Below, in pieces: positions 968 to 5,296 of a DNA stretch of 64,000 bases (positions are counted from its first letter, which is position 1; every line of letters begins with the position of its first letter). Location of the stretch: positions 1,467-65,466 of the forward strand of contig CASIBY010000001.1 of the NCBI GenBank assembly GCA_949373095.1, read 5' to 3'. The notes beneath the pieces are model-generated. The model did not search any database, had not been told where the DNA came from, and was given only the letters and a program-made list of their open reading frames with translations. The stretch comes from Candidatus Poseidoniaceae archaeon. Its GTDB lineage: Archaea > Thermoplasmatota > Poseidoniia > Poseidoniales > Poseidoniaceae. The translations under genes were made by a program, and so were the position numbers.

Positions 968-1633
968 TTGGGTCGCAGACATGAGGAAAAAGTAGACGTG
1001 GAAGAACTCGCACGTCTTGAGAATCCTGAAGGCTCAAATGACGGTAAAATCCGTGTCAAAATGCCCAACAAGAAAGTGAACGAAATGTTCGCTCTTGCTT
1101 CACAAATCCTCGGAGGTCGTCGTGTGACCGTTCTCTGTGCTGACGGCGAAACCCGAATGGCCCGAATTCCAGGAAAAATGCGACGCCGACAATGGGTCCG
1201 TGAAGGAGACTTGATCATCGTTTGGCCTTGGGACTTCCAAGACGCAAAGGCTGACGTCAAGCACCGCTATACCAAAACTCAAGCAATGTATCTGTCACGA
1301 AAAGGCGTCCTTCCAGACGATGTTGACATGTTCGGAATGAGCACACGCTATGATGATGATGACGAGCACGATGATTTGTTCAGTTCAGCGGGTTCACCTT
1401 CCGAAGAAGTTGCTCAACCCGTAAAGGAAGAGTCAGAAGACCTCTTTGCCGATGACGATGATAGTGACGATCTTTTTGCTGACGACGATGAGGGCGGCGA
1501 CGACTTGTTTGCTGATGAAGAAGAATCAAAGCCTGAAGTTGCTGCTGCTCCAGTTGAGGAATTCCCAGAAGAAGCAAGCGGCGATGACGACGACGACGAT
1601 GACGACGATGACATTGATGCCGTCTTCGCCTGA
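968..1633 (+). CDS. eif1a: Translation initiation factor aIF-1A (S1/OB fold) with a long acidic C-terminal extension
   Basis: The core RVKMPNKKVNEMFALASQILGGRRVTVLCADGETRMARIPGKMRRRQWVREGDLIIVWPWDFQD is the eIF1A/aIF1A OB-fold signature. The ORF opens on TTG at 968 and the true start is uncertain (GTG at 995 is possible). Confidence 0.9.
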   Translation: MGRRHEEKVDVEELARLENPEGSNDGKIRVKMPNKKVNEMFALASQILGGRRVTVLCADGETRMARIPGKMRRRQWVREGDLIIVWPWDFQDAKADVKHRYTKTQAMYLSRKGVLPDDVDMFGMSTRYDDDDEHDDLFSSAGSPSEEVAQPVKEESEDLFADDDDSDDLFADDDEGGDDLFADEEESKPEVAAAPVEEFPEEASGDDDDDDDDDDIDAVFA

Positions 1634-1656: not shown

Positions 1657-2655
1657 ATGGCCAAGGACGATGAATGGGAAGAACTCGCCCGTCGTCAATC
1701 ACGTAAGCGTCGTCCTCTCAAGAAGGATAAGAAGGGGTCTAAAGAAGAGCAACTTGATTCTGACTTTGAACGTAAGGAGCAAAACGAATTTGTTCGTGAT
1801 TTGGAAGAAAAATCATCAAAGTACGCATGGATGAAAGAAAAGCGTTTCAGCACGATGTTTCGTGATATTGAAGAGAAAATTCAGGGAGCGATGGGTACGG
1901 GTTCCTTCGATTGGGTTGACCGTCGTGTGTTTGATCAAGTGTTCGACCGTTTGACGCTCATGGCCCTTTACAAATTAATGAAAACTGGGGTCATTGACAC
2001 ACTTGACTTTCCAGTTGCACGTGGAAAAGAAGCGCACGTTTTCCATGGGACAAGTCTCTCAGGGGAGCCCGTAGCCGTCAAAATTTTTCACACTTCAAAC
2101 GCTGTATTCAAGAATCTCGTACAGTACATTGAGGGTGACCCCCGCTTCACAGGTTTAAGGCGCAAGCACCGTGATCTGGTTGAAGTATGGGTCCGTAAGG
2201 AACATCGCAACCTCACTCGATTGGCTCGTTGGGGATTGAATGTCCCAATCCCAAGAGGTATCCACAAGAACGTTCTCATCATGGATTATCTTGGTACCAA
2301 AAATTCTCCTTCACCAAAACTTCGTGAAGTTCTTGTTGATGACCCTCAGTCTGTATACGAAGATTTGCTCGAATTCCTTGCCGTTTCATGGCAGAAGGCA
2401 AATTTGGTTCACGGAGATTTTTCTCCGTACAATATTCTCTGGCATGACGGCCGTGCAAAAGTGATTGATGTCGGGCAAGGTGTGGTTGAAAGCCATCCCA
2501 AATCACAAGAATTCCTCGTTAGGGATGTAACTCGGCTTGTTGAATGGGGGCAGAAAAACAATCTAGATGTAGACCTTCCAGAAGCGATGTATGAGGTTCT
2601 TAACATGGATTTGTCTCACGTGAAACAAATTGAACTTCCAGAAGAATGGAATTGA
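1657..2655 (+). CDS. rio1: RIO-type serine/threonine protein kinase (Rio1)
   Basis: Contains the RIO winged-helix region (LMALYKLMKTGVID), the ATP-binding motif GKEAHVF, and the catalytic and metal loops LVHGDFSPYNILW and VIDVGQ. It follows aIF-1A on the same strand. Confidence 0.9.
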   Translation: MAKDDEWEELARRQSRKRRPLKKDKKGSKEEQLDSDFERKEQNEFVRDLEEKSSKYAWMKEKRFSTMFRDIEEKIQGAMGTGSFDWVDRRVFDQVFDRLTLMALYKLMKTGVIDTLDFPVARGKEAHVFHGTSLSGEPVAVKIFHTSNAVFKNLVQYIEGDPRFTGLRRKHRDLVEVWVRKEHRNLTRLARWGLNVPIPRGIHKNVLIMDYLGTKNSPSPKLREVLVDDPQSVYEDLLEFLAVSWQKANLVHGDFSPYNILWHDGRAKVIDVGQGVVESHPKSQEFLVRDVTRLVEWGQKNNLDVDLPEAMYEVLNMDLSHVKQIELPEEWN

Positions 2656-3405
2656 TCATTCTTCTTCCCAGTTGACTGTCTCGTCTTCTGCCAGTTCCAT
2701 CATATCTGAAACGGCATCACCATCTTCGGGGTCAACCTGTGATGCTCGCATTCTGCGATGATTTCGGCTATCTGATATTTCAGCAAGACCGGGGACGAGA
2801 CTGTCAAAGCCTGATGTAGGACGTTGTGTGTCTTCTCGCTCTTCAAATGCGTCAAGTGATTTAGATTCAAGACGTGCTCGTTTGCGATCCCGTTCAAGGA
2901 AACTGATGACACTGCCGTGTTCCGAGCCGCCCGCTAACATCTCAATGGCGTGTCGGGCTGAGTACAATCCACCTTCCTCTCCAACGAGGACCACGGTTGA
3001 ATTGTAGATGCTGATTTGAGTCTGTGTCAGATTCTCAATGAGTTTCCGAATCTTCCCTTCCCGCCCAATAATTCGGGCACGAATTCGCCGTTGTTGGTTG
3101 GACCGCTTTCCGACGAAATCGCGAAGGTCAATAATTTCGAAAAAGTGGTCATCTTCGAGAAGCGTAACGGCTGCGTTCGGCGCCATGCCCCGACCGATCG
3201 CTTTGACAACATCTGGGAGTTTCATAGCCTTGACGGGGTCGTAAGAGCCTACATCGCCCCAGAGAACTTCAATATCCCCATGGTCCGAATCAATGTTGAA
3301 CTCTTTACAACCTGCAGCCTTCCTGATGGCTCTCGCTGTTTCACCCTTGGCTCCAATGATAACCGCAATGCGGTCTTTGGGCACCCGTGGTAGGGACTGT
3401 CGCAT
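2656..3405 (-). CDS. Two-KH-domain RNA-binding protein (archaeal Dim2/Pno1-like) with an acidic C-terminal tail
   Basis: Two KH GxxG motifs are present (VIIGAKGETARAI and RIIGREGKIRKLI). The start was moved to the ATG at 3405 (MRQSLPRV) because the longer ORF would overlap the end of the upstream surface-protein gene. Confidence 0.8.
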   Translation of the reverse strand: MRQSLPRVPKDRIAVIIGAKGETARAIRKAAGCKEFNIDSDHGDIEVLWGDVGSYDPVKAMKLPDVVKAIGRGMAPNAAVTLLEDDHFFEIIDLRDFVGKRSNQQRRIRARIIGREGKIRKLIENLTQTQISIYNSTVVLVGEEGGLYSARHAIEMLAGGSEHGSVISFLERDRKRARLESKSLDAFEEREDTQRPTSGFDSLVPGLAEISDSRNHRRMRASQVDPEDGDAVSDMMELAEDETVNWEEE

Positions 3406-3430
3406 GGCTAACCCTGCGGCCCTTCTCTTT

Positions 3431-5296
3431 TCAATCCCTTGTCTTCCGCTGGAGCAAGGACAACCCAAACCCAACAAGGATGATGAGGAGTAATGATGGG
3501 GCAAACGAAGGAACGGTTCCAGGGGCGTCGAGGGACGCTCCGGTTACAACGAGATAATTCGCATTGTTGCTTTCATCGAATTCATCAATAACGTTTGCAA
3601 AATCGATGACAAGACGCAAATCAAACTGTCCCGATGTTGGGACAGTATAGTACCATGTCACGGTCTCTGTACTGTTTGAGAGCGTACCCAAGGGAAGATT
3701 TCGGGTTTCCATTACCGTCCACTCAACCGTTGAGGAACGGTCGGCAGGAGCTGATTCCAGGCGAACGATAACGCTCCCTGGATAATCTTGATTTGATTCG
3801 AGTACGCTCGTAATGGTGATGTTTCCGTTTTGTTCTCCTGGTCGTACGACCAATCGGTCAAGATTTGTTTGAGTTGCATTCCAATAGAGGTCTAATCCAG
3901 GGAGGATTTGGAAGGAAGCGGATTCAGTGGTGTAGGTATTGCCTGCCTCATCTTGTAAGAACGCCCTTAGCATAATGTGCTGGCGGGATTTTGTCACCCA
4001 GCTGGACAGGCCAATCTGTCCGTCAAGTCCGTTGACGCCTAAATTCAACCATCGGCCTGAAATATCCGGAGTTTGACCAACACCGTTGGAATCGAATCCA
4101 TACTGAATGTAGGAGGAAACATTATCCATTCCAGAACCGAGGTCTTCAGCGCTAAAAGAAACGTTTGCTGGACCGATTCTGCTGGTTGTAAGTTCGTCAA
4201 CAGTCCATCCGAGTGGTATAGGGTCCGTTTCATCTACGTTAATTTCAATCGTTTGGTTAGCACCAATATTCCCTACACGGTCAATGGCTCGAACAATGAG
4301 TTCATGGGTTCCCTCGGCAAAGGAGAGAGTCAATGAGTCGCTCGTTGTAGTGGTCCAAGATGAAGCTCCTGTGGCCATGTATTGGATGCTCTCAACCCCG
4401 GAACCTTGTCCGTCGTTGGCTGAAGTCATGATGTTACTGAGGGTGATGCTTCCAGAACGGTGCCATGTTGAGCCGTCACCAACAGTAATCGCTCCAATAG
4501 ATGGCCCTGTACGGTCAATGCCAATGTGGAATGTTGAGGTGTTAGAAAGTCCGGATTGGTCGTATACAGTGAGTCGGGGGGACCATGTGCCTTCGGGCAT
4601 ATTGCCTGAAGCCCAATCCCATCCATACGCCAGCGAAGTAGGCCCGTCGGTTGCTGGAGTTCCCGGTCCTGGGACCGTTGTGAGTGTTGCCTGTTTCAAA
4701 TCATCGTCGTTTGCACCCCAGCGGAAAGAAATTGTTCCTTGAGCGGGTATGTTGAACCATGCACGGTCGTTGATCGAGCTACCATTGCCAGCATTGGGGT
4801 TTAGCGCCGTGAAGATGGTAATCTCGGGAACCTGATTTGTGATATTGAAGGAGCCAGAAAGAGTGGTCGTATTGGCTTCTGCATCACTGTCCCAGCCGGT
4901 TGCTCGTAAGGTGTAACTTCCGTTCGTGTAATCGGTGCTGTCGAACGGGTACATCCAAGGCGTCTCGGTCAGGTTGACGACCGAACTGTAAACGGGTGTT
5001 GAGGTTGAGATGTCGTCATCGGTAATTTCGAGTAACAGGGAATCCAGTGTTCCGGTTCCAGTGATGCTGAAGGTTAGCGTTTGAAGCCCGGTAATGTTAT
5101 CATCTTGTGTGGGGCCATTTGAGAATGCAATAGAAAGACTCGAGGAGCCACTTTCAAAGGGCATAATGGCATCAGAGAGGGGCGATGTGTCTCCTTGCTG
5201 GGGCAGTGGAGCAGTCCCAGCGAAGAGGATGAGCACAAGCAAGATGCCCATACGACTCCGTCCCATGCATTCACGACAGGTGCGATTGTCCTTCAA
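3431..5296 (-). CDS. Secreted, C-terminally membrane-anchored surface protein with Ig-like/CARDB-like beta domains
   Basis: It has an N-terminal hydrophobic signal (GILLVLILFAGTAPL) and a C-terminal TM helix (LLLIILVGFGLSLL) followed by QRKTRD. A CARDB-like signature (NVIDEFDESNNANY) precedes the anchor, and NxS/T sequons are frequent. Confidence 0.6.
   Translation of the reverse strand: MKDNRTCRECMGRSRMGILLVLILFAGTAPLPQQGDTSPLSDAIMPFESGSSSLSIAFSNGPTQDDNITGLQTLTFSITGTGTLDSLLLEITDDDISTSTPVYSSVVNLTETPWMYPFDSTDYTNGSYTLRATGWDSDAEANTTTLSGSFNITNQVPEITIFTALNPNAGNGSSINDRAWFNIPAQGTISFRWGANDDDLKQATLTTVPGPGTPATDGPTSLAYGWDWASGNMPEGTWSPRLTVYDQSGLSNTSTFHIGIDRTGPSIGAITVGDGSTWHRSGSITLSNIMTSANDGQGSGVESIQYMATGASSWTTTTSDSLTLSFAEGTHELIVRAIDRVGNIGANQTIEINVDETDPIPLGWTVDELTTSRIGPANVSFSAEDLGSGMDNVSSYIQYGFDSNGVGQTPDISGRWLNLGVNGLDGQIGLSSWVTKSRQHIMLRAFLQDEAGNTYTTESASFQILPGLDLYWNATQTNLDRLVVRPGEQNGNITITSVLESNQDYPGSVIVRLESAPADRSSTVEWTVMETRNLPLGTLSNSTETVTWYYTVPTSGQFDLRLVIDFANVIDEFDESNNANYLVVTGASLDAPGTVPSFAPSLLLIILVGFGLSLLQRKTRD

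What the first reader, a model, noticed from the sequence alone, without database searches (positions are those of the whole stretch)
1304..1633. aIF-1A with a roughly 100-residue eukaryote-like acidic tail containing repeated DDLF(A/S) motifs
After a normal OB-fold core the protein continues with a tail of about 100 residues. The tail carries four DDLF motifs (HDDLFSS, EDLFADDDD, SDDLFADDDE, GDDLFADEEE), a run of ten Asp codons (1583-1612) and the terminus DIDAVFA. As far as I know, archaeal aIF1A proteins generally lack the long unstructured tails of eukaryotic eIF1A, whose acidic C-terminus (DIDDI) contacts eIF5B. The DDLF repeats also recall the acidic, hydrophobic-tipped C-termini of ribosomal stalk P proteins that recruit translational GTPases. 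The neighbouring Rio1 (…ELPEEWN) and KH protein (…ETVNWEEE) also end in acidic, aromatic-containing tails.
Basis: partly seen in the sequence, partly recalled or inferred. Interest (0 to 1): 0.55.

Follow-up and report, generated by a model that had tools for sequence, protein, structure and literature searches.

The report
Archaeal aIF1A with stalk-like acidic tail
In the abundant marine archaea Poseidoniales, the translation initiation factor aIF1A has a conserved, disordered, very acidic tail of about 100 residues that reviews say archaeal aIF1A lacks; its tip resembles the factor-recruiting end of the ribosomal stalk, so it probably tethers a translational GTPase such as aIF5B to the small subunit.

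Summary
Window 968-1633 (+) encodes a 221-aa aIF1A: a normal OB core and the normal archaeal end (..LPDDVDMFG), followed by 98 extra residues. The extra part holds four [DE][DE]LF motifs (0 of 100,000 shuffles reach four), a run of ten Asp, and the terminus IDAVFA.

The tail is not an artefact and not drift. All 119 Poseidoniales genomes with a hit (3 families, 20 genera) show a long frame. All 54 distinct tails extracted are acidic, and 51 end in acidic run + hydrophobic-x-x-hydrophobic-Phe-Gly/Ala, kept through synonymous codon change. About 120 other Thermoplasmatota, including the sister order, end 10-30 residues after the core.

AlphaFold2 predicts the tail to be disordered. Its tip matches the C-terminus of this lineage's own stalk proteins aP1 and P0 (GLG[SD]LFG) at the residues published as essential for binding aIF5B, aEF1A and aEF2. 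In position and style it also parallels the eukaryotic eIF1A tail.

Most likely it is a flexible tether that recruits aIF5B. The partner and binding site are inferred, not shown. No paper in the library describes it. This scan has reported the same feature before on other Poseidoniales genomes. New here: a fixed-position proximal motif, a proteome-wide control, and aIF5B signatures.

The parts
968..1633 (+). aIF1A gene, 221 aa. TTG start at 968 with a GGTGA 7 nt upstream; an alternative GTG start lies at 998. Stop codon at 1631-1633.
   Evidence: Homologues cover the query from residue 1. The ESM Atlas record starts at residue 11. The gene is single-copy in the genome.
1079..1267 (+). OB-fold core (PF01176 match, residues 38-100).
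   Evidence: E 5e-19. AlphaFold2 pLDDT is about 90 over residues 30-120. It aligns to solved aIF1A structures 1JT8 and 5JB3.
1304..1336 (+). Canonical archaeal C-terminal end, GVLPDDVDMFG. Other Thermoplasmatota aIF1A stop here or within 1-20 further residues.
   Evidence: Solved archaeal aIF1A end at the equivalent point.
1337..1630 (+). Acidic tail of 98 residues, predicted disordered.
   Evidence: composition; pLDDT 44-65, no secondary structure. Orthologous tails are present in all Poseidoniales sampled.
1370..1381 (+). Proximal DDLF motif, 16 residues after the canonical Phe. The position is conserved in all three Poseidoniales families (DDLF, GLF, GIF or DLW).
1436..1510 (+). Three further acidic-LF repeats (EDLF 1436-1447, DDLF 1466-1477, DDLF 1499-1510). 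This kind of repeat is typical of family Poseidoniaceae only.
1550..1570 (+). Pro/aromatic element PVEEFPE ahead of the poly-Asp run. Relatives carry PVEEYP or PEPEPL at this place.
   Evidence: Conservation is weaker than at the terminus.
1583..1612 (+). Run of ten Asp codons.
   Evidence: Asp is at 74-96% frequency at positions -12 to -5 from the final Phe in 170 relatives, a set dominated by genus Poseidonia.
1613..1630 (+). Terminal motif IDAVFA, of the form hydrophobic-D-x-hydrophobic-F-small. It resembles the stalk tip GLGSLFG.
   Evidence: 51 of 54 distinct relatives; five Leu codons used; stalk proteins; published key residues.
1657..2655 (+). Rio1 kinase gene, the conserved downstream neighbour. 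It is context only, not part of the tail feature.
2656..3504 (-). KH-domain (Dim2/Pno1-like) gene, convergent on rio1. It is context only.

Best explanation
The gene encodes a functional aIF1A to which the ancestor of Poseidoniales added an intrinsically disordered, poly-acidic C-terminal tail. The tail carries short linear motifs: a proximal acidic-[LI][FW] motif at a fixed distance from the fold, extra acidic-LF repeats in Poseidoniaceae, and an invariant tip made of a poly-Asp run followed by hydrophobic-D-x-hydrophobic-F-[GA] at the C-terminus. aIF1A sits in the A site of the small subunit. From there the tail most likely acts as a flexible tether whose tip, built like the factor-binding tip of the ribosomal stalk (aP1/P0), captures a translational GTPase. 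The most plausible partner is aIF5B, the known late-initiation partner of aIF1A. The tail would concentrate aIF5B on the 30S initiation complex before the large subunit, with its own stalk, joins. This would be a convergent counterpart of the eukaryotic eIF1A tail-eIF5B contact. Shown here: the tail's existence, its conservation under purifying selection, predicted disorder, motif architecture, and the match to the stalk tip. Inferred: the partner, the binding site (G-domain groove as for the stalk, or domain IV as in eukaryotes), and the effect on initiation.
For: The tail is present in all 119 Poseidoniales genomes with an aIF1A hit (3 families, 20 genera). It is absent from about 120 other Thermoplasmatota genomes of more than 40 families, including the sister order G144. 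In 51 of 54 distinct Poseidoniales sequences the tail ends in [ILV]-[DNE]-x-[LFV]-F-[GA] plus 0-2 residues. At the conserved positions Leu uses five codons, Phe two and Gly four, which indicates purifying selection on the amino acids. The tail is predicted disordered next to a confident OB core. The lineage's own aP1 and P0 end invariantly in an acidic run followed by GLGSLFG or GLGDLFG. Published mutagenesis names L103, L106 and F107 (and G102) of aP1 as essential for binding aIF5B, aEF1A and aEF2 (PMC5887453), and the tail tip matches the three hydrophobic positions and the final small residue. aIF5B is present and canonical in relatives (38 of 41 genomes). aIF1A is the only protein of this genome with three or more [DE][DE][LIVM]F motifs, and acidic C-termini are rare (9 of 1552 crude genes), so the tail is not a general feature of the proteome. 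The C-terminal region of aIF5B that touches the aIF1A C-terminal helix in P. abyssi (PMC9226500) carries Poseidoniales-specific, more basic residues. That last point is weak support.
Against: No binding was or could be tested, because no multimer prediction tool was available. The equivalent of aP1 G102 is Asp in the tail. In family Thalassarchaeaceae two residues (PA) follow the LFG, and one family-f2 genome ends in ..GLWSSD instead. The window's own tip has Val where 97% of relatives have Leu. The internal repeats lack the first hydrophobic position. Lineage-specific substitutions in aIF5B are not concentrated in domain IV or in any one patch. A stalk-like tip could equally bind aEF1A, aEF2 or ABCE1. 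aIF5B was not found in this (81.8% complete) assembly itself.
Confidence: 0.5

Rival explanations
1. The tail works mainly like the eukaryotic eIF1A C-terminal tail does on the ribosome and on eIF1A itself. As an acidic nucleic-acid mimic it folds back on the rRNA-binding face of the OB domain and/or reaches toward the P site. This would tune aIF1A affinity for the 30S subunit and the fidelity or kinetics of start-site selection. The Phe motifs would play the part of the Phe-containing repeats of yeast eIF1A.
For: The tail starts at the same place as the eukaryotic tail. HMMER aligns the proximal DDLF region with the yeast segment NFGFESDEDVNFEFG, though without significance beyond the core. 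The proximal motif keeps a fixed distance from the fold across the order, as expected for a contact near the OB domain. PMC5009744 reports that the eIF1A tail contacts the OB ribosome-binding surface and that deleting it raises 40S affinity, and it draws the parallel with the acidic tail of the OB-fold protein T7 gp2.5.
Against: Archaea do not scan. The most conserved element is the extreme C-terminal tip, 60-120 residues from the fold, which looks like a docking motif rather than a charge mimic. Linker length and sequence vary freely (58-135 residues).
Confidence: 0.2
2. The acidic-LF motifs dock to a partner outside translation initiation. This could be a general hub that recognises acidic, Phe-tipped C-termini, or a ribosome-biogenesis partner such as the neighbouring Rio1 or KH proteins.
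For: A few unrelated proteins of the same genome also end in DDLF-like tips: a TIM-barrel AP_endonuc_2 protein, a HEAT-repeat protein and two predicted membrane proteins. Four C-terminal [DE][DE][LIVM]F motifs are seen against 0.74 expected. The aIF1A-Rio1-KH gene cluster is conserved.
Against: The enrichment is small. The conservation of those other tips was not tested. The Rio1 C-terminus is not conserved, and non-tailed Thermoplasmatota keep the same gene cluster. The match of the tip to the stalk proteins is much more specific.
Confidence: 0.12
3. The tail is a tolerated low-complexity expansion (GAY codon slippage) with no specific function beyond solubility or charge.
For: The region contains codon-level repeats (period 3 and 9). 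Linker length and repeat number vary between genera. Public assemblies often carry frameshifted versions.
Against: The tail is retained in every Poseidoniales lineage sampled. The terminal motif and poly-Asp run are conserved with synonymous turnover, and the proximal motif keeps a fixed position. The motif count is far above chance. Acidic tails are rare in the rest of the proteome.
Confidence: 0.08

Closest known systems
Canonical archaeal aIF1A (M. jannaschii 1JT8; P. abyssi in 30S initiation complexes 5JB3 and 7ZAG)
   Same: Same OB-fold core and C-terminal helix region, with 45-55% identity over the core. Same aIF1A-Rio1-KH gene neighbourhood. Single copy in the genome.
   Different: The solved proteins and all non-Poseidoniales Thermoplasmatota sampled stop within about 10-30 residues of the core. 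This one continues for 98 residues. [quoted passage not shown]
C-terminal tail of eukaryotic eIF1A (acidic, disordered; Phe-containing repeats; terminal DIDDI that binds eIF5B domain IV)
   Same: It emerges at the same point after the helical subdomain. It is acidic and disordered. It carries Phe motifs close to the fold and a terminal (D)ID-x-hydrophobic motif after an Asp run.
   Different: It is two to three times longer. The tip is ..IDxLF[GA], not DIDDI. There is no significant sequence similarity in the tail alone. It was gained independently inside Thermoplasmatota, since sister lineages lack it. Archaea do not scan.
C-terminal domain of the archaeal ribosomal stalk proteins aP1 and P0 (acidic run + GLxxLFG-COOH, which recruits aIF5B, aEF1A, aEF2)
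   Same: Both have a flexible linker, an acidic run, then hydrophobic-x-x-hydrophobic-Phe-small residue at the C-terminus. The last four residues are identical (SLFG or DLFG) in many Poseidoniales aIF1A. The three hydrophobic positions correspond to L103, L106 and F107 of P. horikoshii aP1 (PMC5887453).
   Different: It has no stalk dimerisation or P0-binding domain. Gly102 is replaced by Asp. The acidic residues are Asp rather than Glu. It is attached to a small-subunit A-site factor rather than to the large subunit. It carries several extra internal LF motifs.
Acidic, Phe-tipped C-terminal tails of OB-fold single-strand-binding proteins (T7 gp2.5, as discussed in PMC5009744)
   Same: An OB fold is joined to an acidic disordered tail that can both shield the nucleic-acid-binding face and recruit a partner.
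   Different: The family, the nucleic-acid ligand (rRNA A site) and the partner are all different. This is an analogy only.

Membership tests
aIF1A/eIF1A (PF01176) | S1-like OB-fold domain scoring above the Pfam gathering threshold | tested here: met
   68.1 bits against a cut-off of 30.2, E 5e-19. The best PDB match is 1JT8 aIF1A, E 1.5e-27. The AlphaFold2 core has pLDDT about 90.
aIF1A/eIF1A (PF01176) | Single essential copy in the conserved archaeal aIF1A-Rio1-KH neighbourhood | tested here: met
   There is one hit in the genome. Rio1 and the KH protein are adjacent. Rio1 lies downstream in relatives across the phylum.
Eukaryotic-type eIF1A C-terminal tail | Acidic, intrinsically disordered extension after the helical subdomain | tested here: met
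   44% D+E over the last 109 residues. pLDDT is 44-65 with no secondary structure.
Eukaryotic-type eIF1A C-terminal tail | Terminal DIDDI motif | tested here: not met
   The terminus is ..DDIDAVFA, and relatives end ..ID[AS]LF[GA]. Only the D-I-D part is shared.
Eukaryotic-type eIF1A C-terminal tail | Common descent with eukaryotic tails (sequence similarity in the tail; presence in intervening lineages) | tested here: not met
   The tail alone finds no eIF1A in the PDB (best hit E 0.38, unrelated). The sister order and all other Thermoplasmatota sampled lack a tail.
Eukaryotic-type eIF1A C-terminal tail | Binding of the tail to e/aIF5B domain IV | not testable with these tools
   No complex prediction or assay was available. 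aIF5B of relatives keeps the domain IV helical subdomain and the archaeal C-terminal helix region.
Ribosomal P-stalk C-terminal domain (aP1/P0) | Acidic run followed by C-terminal G-L-x-x-L-F-G, with L103, L106 and F107 essential | tested here: met
   The window has Asp10 followed by I-D-A-V-F-A. 51 of 54 relatives have [ILV]-x-x-[LFV]-F-[GA]. The lineage's own aP1 and P0 end GLG[SD]LFG. The key residues come from PMC5887453.
Ribosomal P-stalk C-terminal domain (aP1/P0) | Gly at the position of aP1 G102 | tested here: not met
   Asp occupies this position in 91% of relatives.
Ribosomal P-stalk C-terminal domain (aP1/P0) | N-terminal stalk dimerisation / P0-binding domain (PF00428) | tested here: not met
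   PF01176 is the only Pfam match in the protein. The genome's real aP1 is elsewhere, at G000:C17:28180-28422. The protein is therefore a mimic of the tip, not a stalk protein.
Ribosomal P-stalk C-terminal domain (aP1/P0) | Direct binding to aIF5B, aEF1A or aEF2 | not testable with these tools
   This needs binding assays or multimer modelling.

The most novel reading that the evidence does not exclude
Poseidoniales have independently evolved a small-subunit-borne 'mini-stalk'. The aIF1A tail would be a multivalent mimic of the P-stalk tip. It would pre-load aIF5B (or a small pool of translational GTPases) onto the 30S initiation complex, then hand the factor over to the true stalk when the 50S subunit joins, which would also help eject aIF1A. 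That would be a convergent and mechanistically distinct solution to the problem that eukaryotes solve with the eIF1A DIDDI-eIF5B contact.
Probability: 0.35. Interest if true: 0.75.

Novelty: new variant of a known kind. Interest (0 to 1): 0.6.

Why it matters
Reviews and structural papers on archaeal translation state that aIF1A is a bare OB fold of about 100 residues, and that the acidic C-terminal tail and its contact with eIF5B are eukaryotic inventions. Here a whole order of very abundant ocean archaea carries a conserved tail. Its tip resembles the stalk motif known to bind aIF5B, aEF1A and aEF2.

If the tail does recruit aIF5B, it is a natural, independent re-invention of tail-mediated coupling between the A-site factor and the subunit-joining GTPase. 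It would be a tractable system of short peptides and recombinant proteins for asking why such coupling evolves. It would also warn against generalising from Thermococcales and Sulfolobales models to uncultured archaea.

In practice, the GAY-rich region is often frameshifted in public assemblies, so annotation pipelines may truncate or garble this gene.

Tried and rejected
- **Other archaeal phyla.** A survey could not be completed. A 'longer' protein search with a diverse profile only looked at proteins of 271 aa or more and found three fusions or mis-calls. Cluster look-ups of three non-Poseidoniales representatives with 36-46-aa acidic tails gave no organism names. The statement 'rare elsewhere' therefore rests on the Thermoplasmatota sample, the top 150 of 2004 cluster representatives and the literature.
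- **Tail against PDB and ESM Atlas.** Searching the tail alone gave nothing usable.
- **aIF5B as a guide to the binding site.** I compared 15 Poseidoniales and 21 outgroup aIF5B for lineage-specific positions. The 23 signature positions are spread over domains I and II, with only three in domain IV, so the result is not decisive.
- **Co-variation with the stalk tip.** None is possible, because the stalk tip is invariant across the order.
- **DNA-level tandem duplication as the origin of the DDLF repeats.** Tandem Repeats Finder reports only the GAY run, not a 30-bp repeat, in this window.
- **General acidic shift of the proteome.** Rejected.
- **Minus-strand ORFs over the tail (for example 1414-1698).** These are Ser-rich mirror images of the GAY repeats, not genes.

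Full report
**What is there.** The open frame at window 968-1633 (+) gives a 221-residue protein. Pfam places the eIF-1a OB domain at residues 38-100 (E 5e-19). The best solved relatives are archaeal aIF1A from M. jannaschii (1JT8, E 1.5e-27) and P. abyssi. The gene sits in the usual archaeal aIF1A-Rio1-KH(Dim2-like) cluster and is the only PF01176 hit in the 1.87-Mb assembly. Source names on near-identical proteins identify the organism as Poseidonia, Marine Group IIa, order Poseidoniales.

From residue 113 (nt 1304) the protein reads GVLPDDVDMFG and then continues for 98 more residues. These hold four [DE][DE]LF motifs (nt 1370-1381, 1436-1447, 1466-1477, 1499-1510), ten consecutive Asp codons (1583-1612) and the terminus IDAVFA (1613-1630).

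The last 109 residues are 44% Asp+Glu. Four of the five Leu in this stretch are followed by Phe. No shuffle out of 100,000 reaches four motifs (0.06 expected), and a terminal hydrophobic-x-x-hydrophobic-F-[GA] appears in 51 of 100,000 shuffles.

**Is it real and conserved?** A PF01176 search of 121 Poseidoniales genomes found the gene in 119 (three families, 20 genera), always in an open frame of 136-337 codons. I extracted the proteins from the fetched loci and measured what follows the core. Poseidoniales tails are 58-135 residues and 32-51% acidic; one 47-residue case is cut by a contig end.

The same measurement on about 120 other Thermoplasmatota genomes from more than 40 families gave only 10-30 residues, typically ..LPxxIDVF(G). 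This includes the one genome of the sister order in the same class (G144). The long open frames in some of those genomes are upstream read-through, not tails. The tail is therefore a gain at the base of Poseidoniales.

Among 54 distinct Poseidoniales tail DNA sequences, 51 end in [ILV]-[DNE]-x-[LFV]-F-[GA] plus 0-2 residues. The endings seen are IDALFA, IDSLFG, IDSLFGPA, INDLFG, LEDLFG, VDELFG and IDSFFG. Two family-f2 genomes end in DEDLFD and GLWSSD, and one sequence is cut by a contig end. At the conserved positions Leu is written with five different codons, Phe with both, Gly with four and Ile with three. The amino acids, not the DNA, are being kept. In 170 relatives, mostly genus Poseidonia, Asp is at 74-96% frequency at each of the eight positions before the motif.

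Several cluster representatives in public data switch into Ser/Thr/Arg-rich frames inside the tail. This region is prone to assembly frameshifts, but the window's copy is intact.

**Architecture.** A proximal motif, [DE][DE]x[LI][FW], lies 16 residues after the canonical Phe in all three families: DDLF in Poseidonia and its kin, DGLF in genus g3, AGIFG in Thalassarchaeaceae, and DDLW or DELW in family f2. Only genus g13 lacks it. The further acidic-LF, -MF or -VF repeats (0-5 beyond the proximal motif) are a Poseidoniaceae feature.

The order-wide plan is: fold, canonical end, proximal motif at fixed spacing, a variable acidic linker (with a weakly conserved Pro/aromatic element), a poly-Asp run, then the terminal motif. 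AlphaFold2 with a 57-sequence alignment gives pLDDT about 90 for residues 30-120 and 44-65 with no secondary structure for the tail, consistent with intrinsic disorder.

**What it resembles.** In the literature, P. horikoshii aP1 residues G102, L103, L106 and F107 (C-terminus GLSALFG) are essential for binding aEF2, aEF1A and aIF5B, but not aIF2-gamma (PMC5887453).

I recovered aP1 and P0 from 30 Poseidoniales genomes, including this one. Both end invariantly in a Glu run followed by GLGSLFG or GLGDLFG (GLGDMFG in two P0). The aIF1A tip puts Ile/Val/Leu, Leu/Val/Phe, Phe and Gly/Ala at the positions of L103, L106, F107 and G108, after an acidic run. In many genera its last four residues are literally SLFG or DLFG. 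The G102 position is Asp.

The second resemblance is to eukaryotic eIF1A. The tail leaves the fold at the same point, is acidic and disordered, has Phe motifs near the fold and ends in D-I-D-x-hydrophobic. HMMER extends the alignment with yeast eIF1A through the segment NFGFESDEDVNFEFG opposite the proximal DDLF, but without significance beyond the core. The tail alone finds nothing in the PDB.

Both resemblances are therefore analogies, not homology. The protein fails membership of the stalk family (no PF00428 domain) and of the eukaryotic tail by descent.

**Partner.** The structural papers say explicitly that archaeal aIF1A has neither DIDDI nor a long tail. They also say that aIF5B domain IV and its archaeal C-terminal helix touch the aIF1A C-terminal helix on the 30S subunit (PMC9226500; also PMC7531240 and PMC5009744).

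aIF5B was not found in this 81.8%-complete assembly. It is present in 38 of 41 Poseidoniales genomes, including 5 of 5 of the same genus, and it aligns end to end with P. abyssi aIF5B, including the C-terminal helix region.

I compared 15 Poseidoniales with 21 outgroup aIF5B. This gave 23 lineage-specific positions spread over domains I and II, with three in domain IV. Two of those three make the extreme C-terminus more basic (..HFWGR against ..PFWGM). That fits an acidic tail emerging next to it, but it is weak evidence and does not locate a binding site.

**Controls against a trivial explanation.** In a crude gene set of 1552 ORFs from the genome, only 9 have an acidic C-terminus, and aIF1A is the only protein with three or more [DE][DE][LIVM]F motifs. 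The tail is therefore not a proteome-wide acidic habit.

Four other proteins end in such a motif, against 0.74 expected. One is an AP_endonuc_2 TIM-barrel protein, one a HEAT-repeat protein and one a Pfam-less predicted membrane protein; the fourth (C5:231787-233067) was not examined. A second Pfam-less membrane protein (C6:7215-8318) ends in a looser variant. This keeps open a minor rival in which the motif serves a wider docking system.

**Verdict.** The best explanation (confidence about 0.5) is a disordered tether whose stalk-like tip recruits a translational GTPase, most plausibly aIF5B, to the 30S initiation complex. An eIF1A-like modulatory or fold-back role (0.2) may coexist with this. 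A non-translational partner (0.12) and neutral expansion (0.08) are less likely.

No paper in the searchable library mentions it. Within this scan the same feature has already been reported and followed up on other Poseidoniales genomes with the same reading, so this report is a replication on new DNA. It adds the proximal-motif, proteome-control and aIF5B observations.

Limits: other archaeal phyla could not be surveyed systematically. Among the top 150 cluster representatives, only three apparently non-eukaryotic, non-Poseidoniales proteins have acidic tails of 36-46 residues, and none has the Phe tip.

Noticed in passing
L208, L209, L210, L212 (aIF5B genes of genera g1 Poseidonia and g2): aIF5B carries a 31-residue insertion at the domain II/III junction with a CxxC...H..H...C pattern, which looks like a zinc finger. 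It is absent from the other Poseidoniales genera and from 21 outgroup Thermoplasmatota.
   Followed up: partly
L083-L088, L202-L212 (Poseidoniales aIF5B): Two order-wide aIF5B signatures were seen. One is a 6-residue insertion after the P-loop helix, ahead of switch 1. The other is a more basic extreme C-terminus (..HFWGR, extended by RHIG or a close variant in genus g4) where the outgroup has ..PFWGM. The latter is the region that touches the aIF1A C-terminal helix in the P. abyssi 30S complex.
   Followed up: partly
whole genome G000: No aIF5B gene was found in this assembly with either PF11987 or a Poseidoniales aIF5B protein query. The assembly is 81.8% complete and all five congeners have the gene, so this is most likely an assembly gap.
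   Followed up: yes
G000:C1:107198-108436 (-), C7:75711-76778 (+), C12:7696-9108 (+), C6:7215-8318 (+) (outside the window): Four unrelated ORFs end in acidic, Phe-tipped C-termini (..DDDDDLF, ..LDDLF, ..DEEMF, ..DDVFADL). They are an AP_endonuc_2 TIM-barrel protein, a HEAT-repeat protein and two Pfam-less predicted membrane proteins. Conservation of these tips in orthologues was not checked.
   Followed up: partly
window 1657-2655 (+): The Rio1 C-terminus ELPEEWN is specific to this genome.
   Followed up: yes
P0123-P0127, P0129 (public cluster representatives): Several database versions of Poseidoniales aIF1A shift frame inside the GAY-rich tail and end in Ser/Thr/Arg-rich nonsense. The region is error-prone in metagenome assemblies and gene calls.
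   Followed up: partly
window 968-1000: The start codon is ambiguous. TTG at 968 has a GGTGA 7 nt upstream and matches the MGRR start of homologues, whereas one public record begins at the in-frame GTG at 998.
   Followed up: partly
window 2655/2656: The KH (Dim2/Pno1-like) gene is on the opposite strand and abuts the rio1 stop with no spacer. In several other Thermoplasmatota (non-Poseidoniales) loci the KH gene is on the same strand as aIF1A.
   Followed up: no
window 3431-5296 (-): A 621-aa ORF has an N-terminal hydrophobic segment, many N-x-S/T sites and a C-terminal transmembrane-like segment. It is probably a glycosylated surface protein. It was not examined.
   Followed up: no
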